Origin: the human T2T-CHM13v2.0 reference genome, Homo sapiens
Direction: 5' to 3' (one strand)
DNA length: 64,000 nucleotides
NCBI RefSeq assembly: GCF_009914755.1
Contig: NC_060930.1
In this document: positions 6,401 through 54,650 of the stretch, one piece after another
How positions within the stretch are numbered: the first letter of the stretch is position 1
Layout: each line of letters starts with the position of its first letter
Program-made: the position numbers and the translations under genes
Notes under the pieces: generated by a model
The model's database searches: none
The model's input: the letters and a program-made list of their open reading frames with translations, nothing else
Told to the model about the DNA's origin: nothing

Positions 6401-9003
6401 GGATAATAAGTATCTCAAGGGTGAAGTTGTTTTCCAAGTTCAAAGATGCCTAGTCTAACAGTGTTTCAACCATATCAAGCTGTACAGAATGGAGGCAGAA
6501 TATTTAACTATTCTTCCTCCTTGAATTTTTCACTAAGGAAATATATGGATTAGGAGTTTGAATTAGATAAACAGATTATGGGCTTTGGTCATAAGCAGCC
6601 TAATAATTTCACCTTCCTAGATAGTAAGCATGAGTTATGGAATTAAAAAGACTTGGAAACATAACTTTGTTTAACCTTAGATAAAATTACTTAGCCTCTC
6701 TATTCTTCTTTTTAAATAAATAAATAAATGAAACAATGAATAAACAAGTTATGAATCCATAAAAACGGTGTTTTAAGAATTAATTAAGATAGTTAATATA
6801 CATAGAGGGCTTCTTTGCACATAACTGGCTTATAACAAGCAGCTCTTTTAAAAATAATATCATTATTATTATTTGTAAAGCTGATACATTTTAACTGCCA
6901 CACCTTATGAAAAGAAAGTTTTCTAGCTTAAGCATTAGTTATTTGGATGTAACTCTTAAAAAAAATCGTATCATTATGACTACTAGCAAAAATGTGATGA
7001 TTAGTATTATTTTTTCTAAAAATGCATTTCACAGCTATATTGATTAAAGTTGTGTTGTCAGACCTTATTTTTTTTTTTAACTAGCTTAAGTAGGGGAAAT
7101 TTAAAAGTGTATAATGATCCTCAATTTTTCTCCATCCCATTGTGTTTGCAAAATACAATATGAGGATATTGGGTAACTGTTTCTGTTAGAGTAAAGGTTT
7201 CTGAGAATATTTTAATATTTGATAATGTTTATCATTGTGAAATAATCCAGGCTAAAGCATAACATGATTTATAATTTAATTCACTAAGAAAGATATGTAT
7301 TTCTTTTGCCCTCATAATTTTTTTCTGTCTGCTGTATAATTTAGTATTCAAAAAATTTACATTTAGCAAGAATAGAGTCCAGGTAAAAAGCTCAGCTGAG
7401 AATGAAATCATCATTAATAAGGCAGGCTAATATGATAAAGCTTTCATAGATGGAAGTTAAGATAATAGAGTTCCTGTCTTAGCTCTGAGACTAGTTAGAT
7501 ATATAACTTGACTTCTTAAGTTTTAATTTTTTCTAGCTATAAAACTACAGTGATCAGTAGGATCACGAAAGATGCTACATGTAAAGTTTCTTTTGACTGC
7601 TGAATAGCTTATGTAAATAATAAAACTTTTTTTTAAAGATAGCTGCTCTAAAACCAAATATCAAGAACAAGGTTGTATATATTTTTTTAACATGAGTGAT
7701 TTAGCCAGTCATTTTCCATCTTTCATTGCTTCACTGTTATATTCATATAGCCTTAGGTCAATTCATACTTCTGATGTATAGCATTAACTGTTTGATGTTT
7801 TTAAAAGGCTGCCAATCAAAACAGTTATATTCACAAGAAAAAATTTAACGGGTCACATTAAATGACATTTATTTTTGTTATTTAACACACCAATATTATG
7901 TAAAATATTATATCTTATATCCTATGAATATTTTTTCCATTTTAGTTATTATTATTATCTAATGTGGTAGAATAATTTTCTGCAACTAATCACAGTGACT
8001 GTTTTGATTTGTTTCCACTACATGTGACTTACTATTCTTGGGCAAATGGCCTATAGAGTCAGAAATTAATTGGAGAGTGTCTAAGAATATATAGTATATC
8101 CATAATTAGTTAACAAATAATTTAAATGACAAACACAAAATAAAAGTTTGGTTGATATGTACTAGAATATATTAGACCACTGAGGTACAATAGTATCTTA
8201 TAGATACCATTGATAGGAGTAGCTCAAATTTTGGTAGGCTCCAAGTAGGATAAGTAGAAATTGTATGTAGAAATGGTTAGGAATTATTCTGAATGAATAC
8301 TAAAATATCATTTAGTTATTTTATACTATCAAAATTAGGCCAGCGAGATACACAAAATAGGATTTCCTCCTTAAAAATAAATACTAAATGCAGGCTTGAA
8401 AGTAACATATTTTATGATATTTCTTGACCAATGAATACATATATTCAAAAAGAGAGTGATGAGCATAAAAGTTAAATCATGCTGGTTATTTTTCTTCAGA
8501 TACTGTTTTTCAAAAATAAGTATATTGCTAAACATAATGGTTTTAACTTTAAAATGAAGCTACATATGTCAATTATCAATGTGGAGCATGATTTCAACTA
8601 CACTTCTAATATAAAAAGAAATCTGTGCTTCTCCAAATGCTGTCACATCATGTTATTATAAAAATATATCTTTTAATTAGGAAGTTAAGCTTTTAAGAAT
8701 AAATATTCTGTAACATCAACAATGATATTCTTGAAAACATTTACCTGTGGACTATTTATGTATTTTCTTATTACATCCAAAATACAAAATAGAGCTCTTT
8801 AAAAAAAAAAAGCTCTATAAAAAAGCAATGTAAATATGGCCAAGTTCATACTATCAAGATTTCCAGATCTACATTGTTTCAAGAATTAGAGATGTGTAAA
8901 TATAAATTGACTAATTAAATATAATGAATTTTATTAAGAGTTTTACTAATTTAAATGCAATTATACATGCTAACAGCTCAAAGATTTAAATTTTCATTTT
9001 CAG

Positions 9004-46109: not shown

Positions 46110-47466
46110 AAAAGCTGATACATCTATGTTATTATCAGAGACAATAGAATTTAAAGCAGAAAACAATACTAGAGAAAAAGAGGAACATTTCATAATAATA
46201 AAATGATTAATTCATTAAGAAGATATAATATTATTAAATGCATATGTAATCAGTAACAGCAAAAAATTCTTAGAACTAAGGCAAGAAATAGATAAATCCA
46301 AATTCACAATCACAGATAAACATAATTACAGTGAAAACAATCATGGTTTAAACCTATATTCTAAAGATCTTTCCTGGTAATTCATATAACAAATAAGTCA
46401 GCAAGGATGTAGAAAATTTGAAAATCATTAATCCATTTGACCTAATTGAGTGTTAGGGAACACTATATGCAACAGTTGTAGAGCTCTCATTATTTTGTGC
46501 ATATGAAACATTTACTAAACAAGAACATTTTCTTGGTGTATTAGGTTATTCTCACATTGCTATAAAGAAATATCAGAGACTGGGAAATTTACAAAGAAGA
46601 GAGACTTAATTGGCTCACGGTTCTGCAAGCTGTACAAGAAGCATGGTCGTATCTACTTCTTGGGAGGCCTCAGGGAGCTTTTTGCTCATGGTGGTAGGCA
46701 AAATGGGAGCAGGCACATCTAATGGCTAGAGCAGGAGAAAGAGAGAGGGGGAAGATGCCACACACTTTTCAATACTCAAACATTGCAGCAACTCACTATC
46801 GAGAGGATAGCACCAAGGGGATGGTGCTAAACCATTCAGGAGAAACCTGCTCCAGTGATCCAGTTACCTCCCACCAGGCTCTATTTCCAATACTGGGGAT
46901 TACATTTCAACATAAGATTTGGGCAGGGACACATATCCAACTATATCACTGGCTCATAAAAAAACTAATAGTAAAATTAAAAGTTTTGTAATCTTTGACT
47001 ACAGGGTATTAATAGAAATCAAGAGCTTAATTAATAATGTAATATCTAGTACATCTGCAAATAATTGAAAATTAAATAACACACTTATAAATTAGCCATA
47101 GTCAGAGAAGAACTACAAAAGAATGTAGAAAACAGTTTATAATAATTTAGGTGTCTATACAAGAAAAGAAAAAAATAAAATTAATGATCTAAGCATTCAC
47201 ATTAATAGGCTTAAAAAAGAGCAGATAGTATGCAAAATGATTTTGAAGTAATAATAAACATTGAAATCAATGAAATGGGAAATAAACAATCATTAGAAAA
47301 ACATTTAAAAGCCAATAATTTGTTCTTTGAAAAAATTAAAAATATTAACTTCTAGCAAAACATCACAAAAATCAGAGAGAATACATATTAACAATATAAT
47401 GATTGAAGGACAATAAATCACTATAATTTATATAGAACAAGTATAATATAAAAATATGAACAATTT
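46110..47466 (+). mobile_element. Old L1M ORF2 fragment (continues at 53856-54010); host of the MSTA and HERV-H insertions
   Basis: Degenerate endonuclease/linker-like sequence (atcagagacaatagaatttaaagc, cattaagaagatataata). Confidence 0.7.
46537..46948 (-). mobile_element. MSTA-type MaLR solo LTR
   Basis: tgtattaggttattctcacattgctataaagaaata...atttgggcagggacacatatccaactatatca. Confidence 0.85.
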
Positions 47467-50400
47467 GGCTGACTCTCTTTTCGGACTCAGCCCGCCTGCA
47501 CCCAGGTGAAATAAACAGCCATGCTGCTCACACAAAGCCTGTTTGGTGGTCTCTTCACACCGACGCACATGAAATTTGGTGCTGTGACTTGGATCAGGGG
47601 ACCTCCCTTGGGAGATCAATCCCCTGTCCTCCTGTTCTTTGCTCTATGAAAAAGATCCACCTGCAAACTCAGGTCCTCAGACCCACCAGCCCAAGGAACA
47701 TCTCACCAATTTTAAATCGGGTAAGCGGCCTCTTCTTACTCTCTTCTCCAACCTCTCTCACTATCCCTCAACCACTTTCTCCTTTCCACTCTTTAATCTC
47801 TCCCTTCTCTTAATTTCAATTCCTTTCATTTTCTGGTAGAGACAAAGGAGACACGTTTTATCTGTGGACCCAAAACTCCGGCGCTGGTCACGGACTGGGA
47901 AGGCAGTCTTCCCTTGGGGTTTAATCATTGCAGGAAAGCCTCTCTGATTATTCACCCACGTTTCAGAGGTGTCAGACCATGCAGGGACACCTGCCTTGGT
48001 CCTTCACCCTTAGCGGCAAGTCCCGCTTTTCTGGGGGAGGTGCAAGTACCCCAGCCTCGTATCTCTGCACCCCGATCCCTTATTTTCACGCCCTAACCTC
48101 TTATATCTCTGCACCCTGATCCCTTATTTCTGTGCCCCAACTTCGTATCTGTGCGCCCCAACCCCTTTCCTGCTTTTCTGGAGGGTAAGAACCCCCGAAC
48201 CACTTCCCTCCGTGTCTCTACTCTCCCTTTTCTTTAAACTTTCCTCCTTCACTATAGGCAATCTTCCACCCTCCATTCCTCCTTCTTCTCCCTTAGCTTG
48301 TGTTCCCAAAAACTTAAAACCTCTTCAACTCACACCTGACCTAAAACCTAAATGCCTTATTTGCTTCTGCAATGCTGCTTGACCCCAATACAAACTCGAC
48401 AGTAGTTCCAAATAGCCAGAAAACCACACTTTCAATTTTTCCATACTGCAAGATCTAAATAATTCTTGTAAAATAGGCAAACAGTCTGAGGTGCCTGACG
48501 TCCAGGCATTCTTTTACACATCGGTCCCTTCCTAGTCTCTGTGCCCAATGTAACTCATCCCAAATCTTCCTCCTTTCCCTCCCGCCTGTCCCCTCAGTCC
48601 CAACTCCAAGTGTTGCTGAGTCTTTCTAATCTTCCTTTTCTACAGACCCATCTGACATCTCCCCTCCTTGCCTGGCTGAGCTAGGTCCCAATTCTTCCTC
48701 AGCCTCCATTCCTCCACCCTATAATCCTTTTATAACCTCCCCTCCTCACACCCGGTCAGACTTACGGTTTTGTTCTGCAACTAGCCCCCCAACCCCAACC
48801 TGCCCAGCAATTTCCTCTTAAAAAGGTGGCTGGAGCTAAAGGCATAGTCAAGGTTGATGCTCCTTTTTCTGTATCCGACCTCTCCCAAATCAGTTAGCGT
48901 TTCGGCTCTTTTTTATCAAATATGAAGAACCCAGCCCAGTTCACGGCTCATTTGGCAGCAACCCTGAGACGCTTTACAGCCCTAGACCCAAAAAGTCAAA
49001 AGGCCGTCTTATTCTCAGTATACATTTTATTACCCAATCCACTCCCAACTTTAAATAAAACTCCAAAAATTAAATTCCAGCCCTCAAACTCCACAACAGG
49101 ACTTAATTAACCTCGCCTTCAAGGTGTAAAATAATAGAAAAAAGGCAATTCCTTGTCTCCACTGTGAGACAAACCGCAGCCATATCTCCAGCACACAAGA
49201 ACTTCCAAACGCCTGAACTGCAGCGGCCAGGCGTTCCTCCAGGCCTGCCTCCCCCAGGAGCTTGCTACAAGTGCCAGAAATCTGGCCACCAGGCCAAGGA
49301 ATGCCTGCAGCCTGAGATTCCTCCTAAGCTGCGTCCCATCTGTGTGGGACCCCACTGAAAATCGGACTGTTCAACTCACCTGGCAGCCACTCCCAGAGCC
49401 CCCAGGACTCTGGCCCAAGGCTCTCTGACTGACTCCTTCCCAGATCTTCTCAGCTTAGCAGCTGAAGACTGACACCGCCCAATCGCCTCGGAAGCCTACA
49501 GGACCATCACAGACGCTCTGGGTAACTCTCACAGTGGAGGGTAAGTCTGTCCCCTTCTTAATCAATACGGAGGCTACCCACTCCACATTACCTTCTTTTC
49601 AAGGGCCTGTTTCCCTTGCCTCCATAACTGTTGTGGGTATTGACGACCAGGATTGTAAACCTCTTAAAACTCCTGAAATCTGGTGCCAATTTAGACAATA
49701 CTCTTTTAAGCACTCCTTTTTAGTTATCCCCACCTGCCGAGTTCCCTTATTAGGCCGAGACACTGTAACTAAATTATCTGCTTCCCTGACTATTCCTGGG
49801 CTACAGCTGCGCCTCATTGCCACCTTTTCCCCCAGTTCAGAGCCTCCTTCACATCCTCCTCTTTTATCCCCCCACCTTAACCCACAAGTATAGGATACCT
49901 CTACTCCCTCCTTGGTGACAGATCATGCACCCCTTACCATCTCATTAAAACCTAATCACCCTTACCCCACTCAATGCCAATATCCCATCCCACAGCACGC
50001 TTTAAAAAGATTAAAGCCTGTTATCATTCACCTGCTACAGCATGGCCTTTTAAAGCCTATAAACTCTCCTTACAATTCCCCAATTTTACCTGTCCTAAAA
50101 CCAGACAAGCCTTACAGTTAGCTCAGGATCTGCGCCTTATCAACCAAATTGTTTTGCCTATCCACCCCGTGATGCCAAACCCATATACTCTCCTATCCTC
50201 AATACCTGCCTCTACAACCCATTATTCTGTTCTAGATCTCAAACATGCTTTCTTTACTATTCCTTTGCACCCTTAATCCCAGCCTCTCTTTGCTTTCACT
50301 TGGACTGACCCTGACACCCATCAAGCTCAGCAAATTACCTAGGCTGTACTGCCACAAAGCTTCACAGACAGCCCCCCTTACTTCAGTCAAGCCCAAATTT

Positions 50401-53253
50401 CTTCCTCATCTGTTACCTATCTCGGCATAATTCTCATAAAAACACATGTGCTCTCCCTGCCAATCGTGTCCGACTGATCTCTCAAACCCCGGTACCTTCT
50501 ACAAAACAACAACTCCTTTCCTTCCTAGGCATGGTTAGCATGGTCAGAATTCTTACACAAGAGCCAGGAAAACACCCTGTAGCCTTTCTGTCCAAACAAC
50601 TTGACCTTACTGTTTTAGCCTAGCCCTCATGTCTGCGTGCAGCAGCTGCCACTGCTTTAATACATTTAGAGGCCCTCAAAATCACAAACTATGTTCAACT
50701 CACTCTCTACAGTTCTCATAACTTCCAAAATCTATTTTCTTCCTCATACCTGACGCATATAATTTCTGCTTCCCAGCTCCTTCAGCTATACTCACTCTTT
50801 GTTGAGTCTCCCACAATTACCACTGTTCCTGGCCCGGACTTCAATCCGGCCTCCCACATTATTCCGGATACCACACCTGACCCTCATGACTGCATCTCTC
50901 TGATCCACCTGACGTTCACCCCCTTTCCCCACATTTCCTTCTTCCCTGTTTCTCACCCTGATCACACTTGGTTTATTGATGGAAGTTCCACCAGGACTAA
51001 TCGCCACTCACCAGAAAAAGCAGGCTATGCTATAGTATCTTCCACATCTATCATTGAGGTTACCACTCTGCCCCCCTCCACTACCTCTCAGCAAGCCGAA
51101 CTAGTTGCCTTAAGCCCTCACTCTTGCAAAAGGACTACGTGTCAATATCTATACTGATTCTAAATATGCCTTTCATATTCTGCACCACCATGTGGTCATA
51201 TGGGCTGAAAGAGGTTTTCTCACTACACAAGGGGTCCTCCATCATTAATGCCTTTTTAATAAAAACTCTACGCAAGGCCACTTTACTTCCAAAGGAAGCT
51301 GGGGTCATTCACTGCAAGGGGCATCAAAAGACATCAGATCCCATTGCTCTAGGCAATGTTTATGCTGATAAGGTGGCTAGACAAGCAGCTAGCTCTCCAA
51401 CTTCTGTCCCTCACAGCCAGTTTTTCTCCTTCACATCGGTCACTCCCACCTACTCCCCTGCTGAAACTTCCACCTATCAATCTCTTCCCACACAAGGCAA
51501 ATGGTTCTTAGACCAAGGAAAATATCTCCTTCCAGCCTCACAGTCCCATTCTATTCTGTCGTCATTTCATAACCTCTTCCATGTAGGTTACAAGCCGCTA
51601 GCCCGTCTCTTAGAACGTCTCATTTCCTTTCCGTCATGGAAATCTATCCTCAAGGAGATCACTTCTCAGTGTTCCATCTGCTATTCTACTACCCCTCATG
51701 GATTGTTCAGGCCTCCTCCCTTTCCTACTCATCAAGCTCTGGGATTTGCCCCTGCCCAGGACTGGCAAATTGACTTTACTCACATGCCTTGAGTCAGAAA
51801 ACTAAAATATATCTTAGTCTGGGTAGACATTTTCACTGGATGGGTAGAGGCCTTTCCTACAGGGTCTGAGAAGGCCAACACAGTCATTTCTTCCCTTCTG
51901 TCAGACATAATTCCTCAGTTTAGCCTTCCCACCTCTATACAGTCTGATAACGGACCAACCTTTATTAGTCAAATCAGCCAGGCATCTTTTCAGGCTCTTA
52001 GTATTCAGTGACAGACTAACGGTCTATTAAAAACATGCCTCACCAAGCTCAGCCACCAACTTAAAAAGGACTGGACAATACTTTTACCACTTTCGCTTCT
52101 CAGAATTCAGGCCTGTCCTTGGGATGCTACAAGGTACAGCCCATTTAAGCTCCTGTATAGACACTCCTTTTTATTAGGCCCCAGTCTCATTCCAGACACC
52201 AGACCAACTTAGACTGTGCCCCAAAAAGTTGTCATCCCTACTATCTTCTGTCTAGTCATACTCCTATTCACCGTTCTCAACTACTCATACATGACCTGCT
52301 CTTGTTTACACTGCCAGTTTACACTGTTTCTCCAAGCCATCACAGCTGGTATTTCCTGGTGCTATCCCCAAACTGCCACTCTAAACTCATGAAGTAAATA
52401 AATAATCTTTGCTGGCAGGACTATGCTGAATCTCCTTAGGCACTCTCTAATCAGATGTCCTGGGTCCTCCCAATTCTTAGACCTTTTATACCTGTTTTTC
52501 TCCTTCTCTTATTCCGTTGAGTTTTTCAATTCATACAAAACCGTATCCAGGCCATCATCAATAATTCTACACAAATGTTTCTTCTAACAACCCCACAATA
52601 TCACCCCTTACCACAAAATCTTCCTTCAGCTTAATCTCTCCCACTCTAGGTTCCCACACCACCCCTAATCCCACTGGAAGCAGCCCTGAGAAACATCACC
52701 CATTCTCTCTCTCCATACCACCCCCCAAAAATTTTCGCTGCCCCAACACTTCAACACTATTTTATTTTATTTTTCTTATTAATATAAGAAGGCAGGAATG
52801 TCAGGCCTCTGAGCTCAAGCCAAGTCATCACATCCCCTGTGACTTGCACGTATATATGTCCAGATGGCCTGAAGTAACTGAAGAATCACAAAAGAAGTGA
52901 ATATGCCCTGCCCCACCTTAACTGATGACATTTCACCACAAAAGAAGTGTAAATGGCCAGTCCTTGACTTAAGTGATGACATTACCCTGTGAAAGTCCTT
53001 TCTGTGGCTCATCCTGGCTCAAAAACCACCCCCACTGAGCACCTTGCGACCCCCACTCCTGCCCGCCAGAGAACAAACCCCCTTTGACTGTAATTTTCCT
53101 TTACCTACCCAAATCTTATAAAATGGCCCCACCCTTATCTCCCTTCACTGACTCTCTTTTCCCACTCAGCCCACCTGCACCCAGGTGAAATAAACAGCCA
53201 TGTTGCTCACACAAAGCCTGTTTGGTGGTCTCTTCACAGGGACACGCATGAAA
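47467..53253 (+). mobile_element. HERV-H: R-U5 only at the 5' end (47468-47574), His PBS, gag-pro-pol remnants, deleted env, complete 3' LTR7
   Basis: PBS tggtgctgtgacttggat at 47577-47594; zinc knuckle CYKCQKSGHQAKEC; protease FLINTEAT (catalytic motif mutated); RT DLRLINQ and LDLKHAFF; integrase HNLFH..CSIC and WQIDFTHMP. Confidence 0.97.
52799..53253 (+). promoter_or_regulatory. LTR7 3' LTR with TATA box (53117-53123) and AATAAA
   Basis: TGTCAGGCCTCTGAG...GCATGAAA, preceded by the polypurine tract agaaggcaggaa. Confidence 0.93.
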
Positions 53254-53397
53254 GGCCCCTTTCCGGTAACAAAGGTGCTATCAAGAAACAGAGAGGGGTT
53301 GGTTGATGCTTCTTAACCTTGTTAATATCAAATTTTCTGCATCTGAGTAGTGCTTTGAAAACCCCGGTAAGGTGTAAGACATGGGAACTTTTGTGCC

Positions 53398-53838
53398 TAT
53401 TGGAAACCAGAATATGCCACACCAAGGTATACAGGATGATTGAGCCAAAGGCAATGAAGGAGGAGATGCAGGAAAGCACTCTGCCCTCCATGTGCCTAAA
53501 AGCAGGATATAAATGTGCAAAGGCAAAGGGTTTCCATGCCCTCACCTACCAGAGAGAAGAAATGTTAACCCTTTAAGACAACATTAGCCGGTGGAGATGG
53601 TAGCAGTGGAATCTACATTAACCAGCTTTCCTAACTTGCCGTTAATTGCCCTTAGTTTACCTTTCCACAAGTTGCTATTCTGCACATTCAAAGTTCCTTT
53701 CCTTTGTTTTGTCGCTTCTCTAAAATTTTCCTTTACTTTGTTAACGATGCTATATAAGCTGTAATTCAAATTCACCTCTATGAGAATTACTCATTCCCTG
53801 GTATCTCCCATGTATATATAAAATATACATGTTAATAA
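53398..53838 (+). mobile_element. MER34-like LTR truncated at its AATAAA (part of the transduced flank)
   Basis: gaaaccagaatatgccac...gcctaaaagcagga...atatacatgttaataaa matches the recalled MER34 group. Confidence 0.7.
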
Positions 53839-54404
53839 AAAAATATGAACAATTTCTTGTCAAAATTGGAGGGCATATATTATTTAGTTTAAGGATGTAA
53901 TATAAAACTATAGCAATCAAGATAAAGTGGTATCGGCATGAGGATAAACAAATGAATTGATTGAACAGAATAAAGAGTCCTGAAGTGGATCTACAATTGA
54001 TTTTTGACCAATTTGTTGAGGTACAATAGTCAGCAGTCTCTGAATTGAAGATGTAGAGCTGTGGCTCTGGGGATTTCAAAGCAGAAAAAGTTCACAGGAA
54101 AGAGTTCTATAAAAGAGAAAACTGCACATGGAAATAACTTGGGAAATTTGTAAAGTCTACTCTTTAGGAATCTGTAAATAGTTTTAATTAATGAATGTGT
54201 ATAATTAATGTGTATTTTAATTAATTAATGTATATAATTAATGTATGTAATTAATGAATGTGTATAAGAAACCTAAACAAGGGTAGCAAAAGAACCACAC
54301 AAAATAATTAGGGCAAATTATACTTAAAGTTCACAAAGGGCAGAAAATAATACCTGTTTACAATAGCTGAAGTGGAAAATCTTTTTATTCCAGTGATCAG
54401 TTAG

Positions 54405-54650
54405 AGCTGGCTTTGGCAACTTTGGCCTGTTAGTCAAATCTGACCTATGATCTATTTTGGGATAGAATTTGAGATAAATAATTTGTACATATTAAACAGA
54501 GGTAAAAAGCAAACATACACACATAGAAACAAATAAATATGTTACAGAAATCATATATGACTTACCAAGCATAAACTGTGCACTATTATATATAAATACA
54601 ATTATACATGTTTCTTTTACAGAAAAATATTTGCTGGTCTGTTAGCTAGA
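54405..54650. mobile_element. MER58-like hAT DNA transposon
   Basis: ttggcaactttggcctgttagtcaaatctgacc...cttttacagaaaaatatttgctg. Confidence 0.6.

What the first reader, a model, noticed from the sequence alone, without database searches (positions are those of the whole stretch)
53254..53838. 585-bp 3' transduction carried by the HERV-H read-through transcript, a barcode for its source locus
Seen: inside the TSD and beyond the complete 3' LTR (U5 included) lie three pieces: an 18-nt LTR-terminus-like stub (ggcccctttccggtaaca), ~125 bp of unique sequence, and a MER34-like LTR ending exactly at its AATAAA, which merges into the TSD with no real poly(A). Inference: the parent provirus skipped its own poly(A) signal and ran into flanking DNA. 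The copy was either primed internally on the AATAAA or later lost its tail. This would be ERV-driven, L1-executed shuffling of flanking genomic DNA.
Basis: partly seen in the sequence, partly recalled or inferred. Interest (0 to 1): 0.75.

Follow-up and report, generated by a model that had tools for sequence, protein, structure and literature searches.

The report
HERV-H retrocopy carrying its parent's flank
A human endogenous retrovirus copy on chromosome 6 carries 585 bases of the DNA that lies just behind its parent on chromosome 4, most likely because the parent's RNA ran past its stop signal and was pasted in by the LINE-1 enzyme, so the copy can be traced to one source locus.

Summary
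Confirmed. The 585-bp tail has one full-length match elsewhere in the genome: chr4:16,985,554-16,986,136 (97%), directly behind a two-LTR HERV-H provirus. All three predictions hold there. The stub is the end of an older LTR that the provirus split (5-bp duplication GGCCC), and the MER34-like LTR runs 96 bp past AATAAA. The chr6 copy starts at R with one extra G, is unspliced and colinear with the chr4 provirus, and sits in a 17-bp duplication at an L1-type site. It is a likely L1-made copy of a read-through transcript. Carter 2022 lists the parent as LTR7up1 with stem-cell nascent transcription and the copy only as 'truncated'. A pattern survey found 12 duplication-flanked R-start HERV-H copies among 14 examined: 8 end at the first LTR poly(A) site, 1 skipped a whole LTR, and 3 carry non-HERV-H DNA. 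This copy alone has no tail. Internal priming (about 60%) versus later tail loss (about 30%) stays open; primate genomes were not available. The parts are known; the combination was not found in 10 literature searches. No function is shown.

The parts
47450..47466 (+). 5' copy of the 17-bp target-site duplication (23 bp from 47444 if one mismatch is allowed); the nick would fall at T|AAAAA, an L1-endonuclease-like site
47467..47467 (+). extra G not templated at this position by either chr4 LTR; likely copied from the RNA cap
   Evidence: same feature described for an LTR7Y-initiated L1 product in PMC6425141
47468..47574 (+). 5' R-U5 of LTR7; U3 absent; starts about 24 nt after the TATA box position of the LTR
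   Evidence: same start in 11 other duplication-flanked copies
47575..52798 (+). HERV-H internal region, unspliced, colinear with the chr4 provirus (5.1% total, 2.7% non-CpG divergence); longest stop-free sense stretch 244 codons
52799..53253 (+). complete 3' LTR7 (U3-R-U5) with an intact AATAAA at 53189-53194 that was skipped
53254..53271 (+). stub: 5-bp integration duplication of the parent provirus (53254-53258) plus the last 13 nt of an older LTR (MER41-like, name recalled) whose first 511 bp lie upstream of the chr4 provirus
53272..53397 (+). 126-bp unique chr4 spacer; begins with the older LTR's 4-bp duplication and ends with the 4-bp duplication of the next LTR
53398..53839 (+). first 442 bp of a 538-bp solo LTR (MER34-like, name recalled), cut at its AATAAA (53834-53839); the last 96 bp stay at chr4
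53839..53855 (+). 3' copy of the 17-bp target-site duplication; no poly(A) before it

Best explanation
The chr6 element is a copy of the chr4:16.98 Mb HERV-H provirus plus 585 bp of that provirus's downstream DNA, most likely made when a transcript that skipped the viral poly(A) signal was reverse-transcribed and inserted by the LINE-1 enzyme. Steps: (1) shown: an LTR7 HERV-H integrated near the end of an older LTR on chr4, leaving a 5-bp duplication. (2) Inferred: RNA polymerase II started at R, gave a capped unspliced RNA and read through the intact 3'-LTR AATAAA to the next canonical signal 640 nt on, in the MER34-like LTR. (3) Inferred from the hallmarks: L1 ORF2p nicked an A-rich target on chr6 and copied the whole RNA up to the cap. 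(4) Least certain, about 60%: the target DNA primed on the A-rich AAUAAA region rather than on the tail, so the tail and the bases after the hexamer were not copied. The event probably came soon after the provirus formed, roughly 10-14 million years ago (inferred).
For: Single full-length second locus at 97%; 2 of 2 places for the junction. At chr4 three nested integrations are complete, each with its own duplication, while chr6 holds only the part from R to AATAAA, which fixes the direction chr4 to chr6. Colinear 6.4-kb alignment without splicing. chr4 is the best other hit for the whole HERV-H part (23 of 2433 candidates scored). Against the closest rival provirus (chr2:209.56 Mb), derived non-CpG sites are chr6+chr4 12, chr6+chr2 3, chr4+chr2 0; a 2-bp and a 45-bp deletion are shared by chr6 and chr4 only among 5 aligned copies. 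Non-CpG divergence of the viral part (148/5437) and the tail (11/569) does not differ (Fisher p 0.34). R start, extra G, 17-bp duplication at T|AAAAA. The AATAAA where the copy ends is the only canonical hexamer between the LTR7 signal and 1.9 kb beyond the provirus. Flanks are not shared with chr4. The parent is listed as LTR7up1 with top-seventh GRO-seq signal and NANOG/KLF4/SOX2 binding in ES cells (PMC8912925 supplement 1). For internal priming: 11 of 11 other duplication-flanked copies keep an A- or CA-rich tract and this one has none; 5 nt just upstream of the exact duplication match the RNA at the endpoint (6 of 7 in register; 13 of 7774 transcript positions score as well; chance about 0.7-1%).
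Against: No poly(A) tail, one of the three hallmarks of an ERV processed pseudogene. With the 17-bp duplication taken literally, only 1 nt of target-RNA pairing lies in the observed register (5120 of 7774 positions score as well); the better pairing needs a 22-23-bp duplication, one later substitution and a less canonical nick. In the pol stretch a chr2 provirus ties with chr4 (3793 vs 3792 bits). In a four-way comparison the sites from 49501 to 52798 did not favour chr4 (3 vs 4 vs 9). The 45-bp deletion is shared by 40 loci genome-wide. chr6 has more private changes than chr4 (74 vs 50, p 0.04). In Carter's table the parent is not 'highly expressed' by RNA-seq and has no chimeric transcript flagged. 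No RNA data were examined here.
Confidence: 0.92

Rival explanations
1. Same route, but the RNA was normally cleaved and polyadenylated at the MER34-like signal, was inserted with a tail, and a later deletion between the AATAAA and the A-tail removed the tail and the bases before it.
For: The endpoint is exactly the first canonical poly(A) hexamer downstream; the hexamer is seen near the LTR end in 15 of 28 related copies by a rough scan; the other copies end about 14 nt after their hexamer and then carry a tail.
Against: It needs a second event that removes unique sequence as well as the tail; 11 of 11 other copies kept a tail-derived tract; it leaves the 5-nt match upstream of the duplication as coincidence. 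Tailless L1 products are common (PMC5322556).
Confidence: 0.3
2. A chimera: L1 reverse transcriptase began on a chr4-derived RNA and switched template to an HERV-H RNA from another locus, or later gene conversion replaced part of the internal region.
For: The pol stretch does not single out chr4; only 23 and 40 candidates were scored in those searches.
Against: Leader/gag sites favour chr4 9 to 1, shared indels lie at both ends of the internal region, and divergence is even along the element. The family is star-like, so ties are expected.
Confidence: 0.06
3. A DNA-level duplication (segmental duplication or templated repair of a break) copied 6.4 kb of chr4 into chr6 with no RNA step.
For: No splicing and no poly(A), so two RNA marks are missing.
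Against: The ends fall on the transcription start and on a poly(A) hexamer; there is an extra G and a 17-bp duplication at an A-rich site; flanks are not shared; 11 other copies start on the same base.
Confidence: 0.02
4. Retroviral transduction: the read-through RNA was packaged and integrated by the HERV-H enzymes.
For: Read-through of 3' LTRs is the classical source of retroviral transduction (recalled; one search found no paper with my terms).
Against: That route rebuilds two full LTRs and leaves a short duplication like the 5 bp at chr4; here U3 is missing at the 5' end, host DNA lies outside the 3' LTR and the duplication is 17 bp.
Confidence: 0.01

Closest known systems
L1-made processed pseudogenes of ERVs (HERV-W: PMC5016936, PMC5537654, PMC5775608; HERV-H: Goodchild 1995 as cited in PMC3590776; HML-2 2q32.1: PMC3590776)
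   Same: 5' end at R with U3 missing, long target-site duplication at an A-rich site, colinear with the proviral RNA.
   Different: The 3' LTR is complete (U5 kept) and is followed by 585 bp of host DNA; there is no poly(A). The parent can be named, whereas PMC5016936 reports that HERV-W pseudogenes could not be assigned to single proviruses. PMC5537654 calls HERV-W the sole group mobilised by L1.
3' transduction by L1 (and SVA, recalled)
   Same: The element's poly(A) signal is bypassed, downstream DNA is carried to the new site and identifies the donor (PMC6425141).
   Different: The donor is an ERV provirus mobilised in trans, with no L1 sequence in the insert.
LTR7Y-initiated 5' transduction of an L1 (Ref_Chr1_p31.1a, PMC6425141)
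   Same: HERV-H LTR7 start site, untemplated G, L1 execution.
   Different: There the HERV-H RNA is spliced onto an L1 and moved in cis as a 5' transduction; here the whole HERV-H RNA is the cargo and the extra DNA is at the 3' end.
Tailless retropseudogenes (PMC5322556; PMC2912911)
   Same: Duplication-flanked insert without oligo(A), ending at an A-rich stretch of the RNA.
   Different: The passages I read describe small RNAs, mRNAs and L1, not an ERV read-through RNA; extended pairing here is suggestive only.

Membership tests
L1-processed ERV pseudogene | 5' LTR reduced to R-U5 | tested here: met
   47468-47574 aligns to the last 107 nt of the LTR; no U3 upstream
L1-processed ERV pseudogene | 3' LTR reduced to U3-R | tested here: not met
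   3' LTR is complete and followed by host DNA: this is the variant feature
L1-processed ERV pseudogene | poly(A) tail | tested here: not met
   7 A's at the junction are accounted for by the hexamer and the duplication
L1-processed ERV pseudogene | TT/AAAA-like target and long target-site duplication | tested here: met
   17-bp exact duplication, slightly above the 5-15 bp quoted for HERV-W and near the 14-16 bp L1 peak; AT|AAAAA, degenerate
3' transduction | non-element DNA inside the duplication, downstream of the element | tested here: met
   53254-53838
3' transduction | source locus with the same DNA directly behind a related element and continuing beyond the endpoint | tested here: met
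   chr4:16,985,554 onward
3' transduction | ends at or just after a downstream poly(A) signal | tested here: met
   ends on the first canonical hexamer after the LTR7 signal; tail missing
3' transduction | empty site in species that lack the insertion | not testable with these tools
   only the human assembly is held; old repeat copies were too diverged to stand in
Tailless retropseudogene (internal priming) | no oligo(A) between insert and duplication | tested here: met
Tailless retropseudogene (internal priming) | complementarity between target and RNA at the endpoint | tested here: inconclusive
   1 nt for the 17-bp reading; 4-5 nt perfect (6 of 7) for the 22-23-bp reading
HERV-H, LTR7up1 subfamily | assignment by subfamily consensus | tested here: met
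   PMC8912925 supplements list hg38 chr4:16,997,747-17,003,925 as 7up1 full and chr6:102,102,535-102,108,210 as LTR7up1 truncated (its 5' part also as LTR7u2 truncated); I matched assemblies by position, strand, length and a shared 2-bp gap, not by liftover
MER41 / MER34 LTR families (stub and last piece) | match to Dfam/Repbase consensus | not testable with these tools
   names recalled; shown here only that both are solo LTR-like repeats with 4-bp duplications and that the second has many copies at 70-78%
Retroviral provirus | two full LTRs and a 4-6 bp duplication | tested here: not met
   met at chr4, not at chr6

The most novel reading that the evidence does not exclude
HERV-H/LTR7 loci were a recurrent source of L1-executed transductions in the ape germ line or early embryo: LTR7-started RNAs that ignored the LTR poly(A) signal moved neighbouring DNA, and in one case spliced host exons, to new sites. 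Such copies are a sizeable minority (3 of 12 here, 4 with the tandem copy) of an under-recognised class of HERV-H retrocopies, and they record which individual proviruses were transcribed in heritable cells millions of years ago.
Probability: 0.6. Interest if true: 0.65.

Novelty: new variant of a known kind. Interest (0 to 1): 0.5.

Why it matters
It gives a parent-daughter link for an ERV retrocopy, which was reported as unobtainable for HERV-W. It is fossil evidence that one named LTR7up1 provirus, still transcribed in stem cells by published data, was transcribed in a heritable cell where L1 was active. It extends 3' transduction, the known route of sequence shuffling by L1, to ERV donors, and shows that elements catalogued as 'truncated' HERV-H can be retrocopies. 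The cargo here is non-coding repeat DNA and no function is shown. RefSeq enhancers overlap the 3' LTR and tail (hub annotation), but reads there could come from chr4.

Tried and rejected
Using old repeat copies to tell which base was ancestral at the one mismatch of the 23-bp duplication: too diverged. The 45-bp deletion as a private marker of the parent: shared by 40 loci. A mutated viral poly(A) signal as the cause of read-through: AATAAA is intact in both 3' LTRs. A segmental duplication: neither flank has a second copy. Further daughters with the same tail: none among 40 of 331 candidates scored, and 2 of 2 for the unique junction. APOBEC-type G>A excess among chr6-private changes: not evident (non-CpG G>A 8 of 74; C>T 19, C>A 16). 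Rfam: no match in 47000-54500. Survey hits dropped before the count of 12: chr3:90.15 Mb (inverted junction, not a transcript start), chr19:42.78 Mb (no duplication found), and the second chr7 hit (not fetched; same matched bases as the first). A parent for the chr9 copy was not settled. The glycosyltransferase frame of the chr3 copy had no PDB match. Pavlicek 2002 was not held and Goodchild 1995 was seen only as a citation, so either may mention read-through copies.

Full report
Observation. A complete LTR ends at 53253. It is followed by an 18-nt stub, a 126-bp spacer and an LTR-like repeat that stops at AATAAA 53834-53839. The last A of that hexamer is also the first base of a 17-bp sequence (53839-53855) that is repeated exactly at 47450-47466, in front of the element; with one mismatch the repeat is 23 bp. 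The element inside the duplication starts at 47467 with a G that neither chr4 LTR has at that position, then R-U5, the internal region and the 3' LTR.

Source. A search of the human assembly with the tail gave 42 matches from 40 of 331 candidates scored. Apart from the window, one covers all 585 bp: C4:16,985,554-16,986,136 at 97%. The others are 70-78% copies of the last LTR only. The stretch spanning the LTR end, stub and spacer has 2 matches from 2 candidates. At chr4 the tail follows a two-LTR HERV-H at 16,979,371-16,985,553. GGCCC lies on both sides of that provirus, so the first 5 nt of the stub are its integration duplication. Upstream lie 511 bp of an older LTR whose last 13 nt are the rest of the stub; that LTR has its own AAGG duplication. 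The MER34-like LTR is a whole 538-bp solo LTR with a TGCC duplication; it runs 96 bp past the AATAAA, and related copies end at the same place. chr4 therefore has every nested integration complete, and chr6 has only the part from R to AATAAA, which fixes the direction. Neither the chr4 downstream flank nor the chr6 upstream flank has a second copy. The names MER41 and MER34 are recalled.

Is the whole element from chr4? The two align end to end over 6.4 kb with no splice-sized gap; the largest gap is 44 bp in a tandem repeat. Non-CpG divergence is 148/5437 in the viral part and 11/569 in the tail, not different (p 0.34), 2.65% overall. The lower raw identity of the viral part comes from CpG decay. 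chr4 is the best other hit for the viral part (23 of 2433 candidates scored). Results against: in pol a chr2 provirus ties, a four-way count from 49501 to 52798 gave 3 sites for chr4 against 4 and 9 for two other copies, and the 45-bp deletion first taken as private is shared by 40 loci. With the chr2 copy added, derived sites are chr6+chr4 12, chr6+chr2 3, chr4+chr2 0, mostly in leader and gag, and a 2-bp and the 45-bp deletion are shared only by chr6 and chr4 among the 5 copies. A chimera is unlikely but not excluded for pol.

Timing. The chr4 LTRs differ at 6 of 412 non-CpG sites, and at most 3 of these are shared by the chr4 and chr6 3' LTRs, so the copy was made while the provirus was young. 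Supplements 1 and 2 of PMC8912925 list a full LTR7up1 element at hg38 chr4:16,997,747-17,003,925 (top-seventh GRO-seq; NANOG, KLF4, SOX2, MED1, KAP1, ZNF534 positive; RNA and chimeric-transcript flags 0) and a 'truncated' one-LTR element at chr6:102,102,535-102,108,210. I matched these to our loci by position, strand, length and a shared 2-bp gap. The main text dates most 7up1 insertions to about 10-14 million years ago (passages). Private non-CpG changes of 74 and 50 in 5095 sites fit that range at a recalled rate near 1e-9 per site per year. This age is inferred.

Mechanism. An R start with U3 missing, an A-rich target and a long duplication are the published marks of L1-processed ERV transcripts (PMC5016936 passages). 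A single untemplated G was read as the cap in an LTR7Y-initiated L1 product (PMC6425141 passages). The 3'-LTR AATAAA is intact in both copies, so read-through was leaky, not forced by mutation. The endpoint is the first canonical hexamer downstream, and no other lies within 1.9 kb of the provirus. The junction has 7 A's: 3 can come from the hexamer and 5 from the duplication, leaving no room for a tail. If the nick gave the 17-bp duplication, pairing in the observed register is 1 nt, no better than chance. If it lay 5-6 nt further upstream, 4-5 nt pair perfectly (6 of 7; 13 of 7774 positions as good) at the price of one later substitution, which is unremarkable at this divergence. Tailless L1 products primed on A-rich internal stretches are described in PMC5322556 (passages and section 15). 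I put internal priming near 60%, later tail loss near 30%. A mixed picture, in which the tail recruits the enzyme and priming happens just upstream, would explain why the endpoint is the hexamer; this is inference.

How common? A pattern for an R start preceded by G and by non-U3 bases gave 15 hits and 0 for the reversed control. The pattern demands the G and exact matches, so it is a biased lower bound. I examined 14: the window and 13 fetched; the second chr7 hit was not fetched. Two were dropped (an inverted junction; no duplication found). Of the 12 with a duplication, some short or imperfect, 8 end about 14 nt after the LTR7 hexamer, 1 is a tandem HERV-H that skipped one LTR, and 3 carry other DNA: this one, a chr9 copy (R-U5 into Alu and a MaLR-type LTR) and a chr3 copy (leader spliced to a second LTR, flank, then glycosyltransferase exons). 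The window copy is the only simple unspliced 3' read-through, and the only one of 12 with no tail-derived tract.

Literature. Ten full-text searches were run. None listed a paper whose title or abstract describes 3' transduction from an ERV donor or this locus; two searches returned nothing. I read passages of PMC5775608, PMC5016936, PMC5537654, PMC3590776, PMC6425141, PMC9343867, PMC2700803, PMC2912911 (plus section 7), PMC5322556 (plus section 15) and PMC8912925 (plus the first parts of supplements 1 and 2 and a term search of all 10 supplements). HERV-H retrocopies are known (Goodchild 1995, seen only as cited). Pavlicek 2002 was not held. The library lacks most subscription journals, so absence from print is not established.

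Verdict. It works like an L1 3' transduction and like an ERV processed pseudogene, but it fails two defining features of the latter (U3-R end, poly(A)), so I file it as a new variant of a known kind. The cargo is non-coding and no function is shown. Interest 0.5.

Noticed in passing
L038/L049 (G000:C3:158,818,600-158,820,070, minus strand): Duplication-flanked, A-tailed retrocopy: HERV-H R-U5-leader spliced into a second LTR's R, then U5, about 150 nt of flank and spliced exons of a group-1 glycosyltransferase (Pfam PF00534, E 3e-9; ALG1-like by recall). The LTR-flank exon matches 8 loci (7 over its full length) at 92-96% in a segmental-duplication family, so the parent is not unique. Looks like ERV-driven exon shuffling.
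   Followed up: partly
L042 (G000:C9:27,012,500-27,012,970, minus strand): R-U5 followed directly by part of an Alu and a MaLR-type LTR (names recalled) up to its poly(A) signal, with A-tail and duplication: an LTR7-started RNA made of flanking DNA. A rearranged look-alike at C1:180.43 Mb (97-98% over 174 and 51 bp) may be related.
   Followed up: partly
L046/L069/L060/L067 (G000:C16:76.43-76.44 Mb, minus strand): Retrocopy of a tandem HERV-H: two internal regions sharing a full middle LTR, ending at the last LTR's poly(A) site; its RNA must have skipped one LTR signal.
   Followed up: partly
L036, L039, L040, L041, L043, L044, L045, L048: Eight ordinary HERV-H processed copies (R start, end about 14 nt after AATAAA, tail, duplication); several tails have turned into CA or CAA microsatellites. 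At odds with the statement in PMC5537654 that HERV-W is the only group moved by L1.
   Followed up: partly
window 47467-53253: chr6-private non-CpG changes include 16 C>A against 3 in the chr4 parent, and about 1.5 times more private changes overall; a regional mutation effect is a guess.
   Followed up: no
window about 51040-51590: chr6 and chr4 both keep a 550-bp pol stretch that many other scored HERV-H copies lack.
   Followed up: no
L031:1237-1294 and 8770-8827: A 58-bp repeat at 86% identity brackets the whole MER41-like/HERV-H/MER34-like cluster at chr4; unexplained.
   Followed up: no
window 46950-47466 and beyond 53856: The target site lies in an old, A-rich, highly diverged repeat, L1-like by recall.
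   Followed up: partly
L037 (G000:C3:90.149 Mb): HERV-H leader joined in inverted orientation to an R-U5 piece, with the junction inside R.
   Followed up: no
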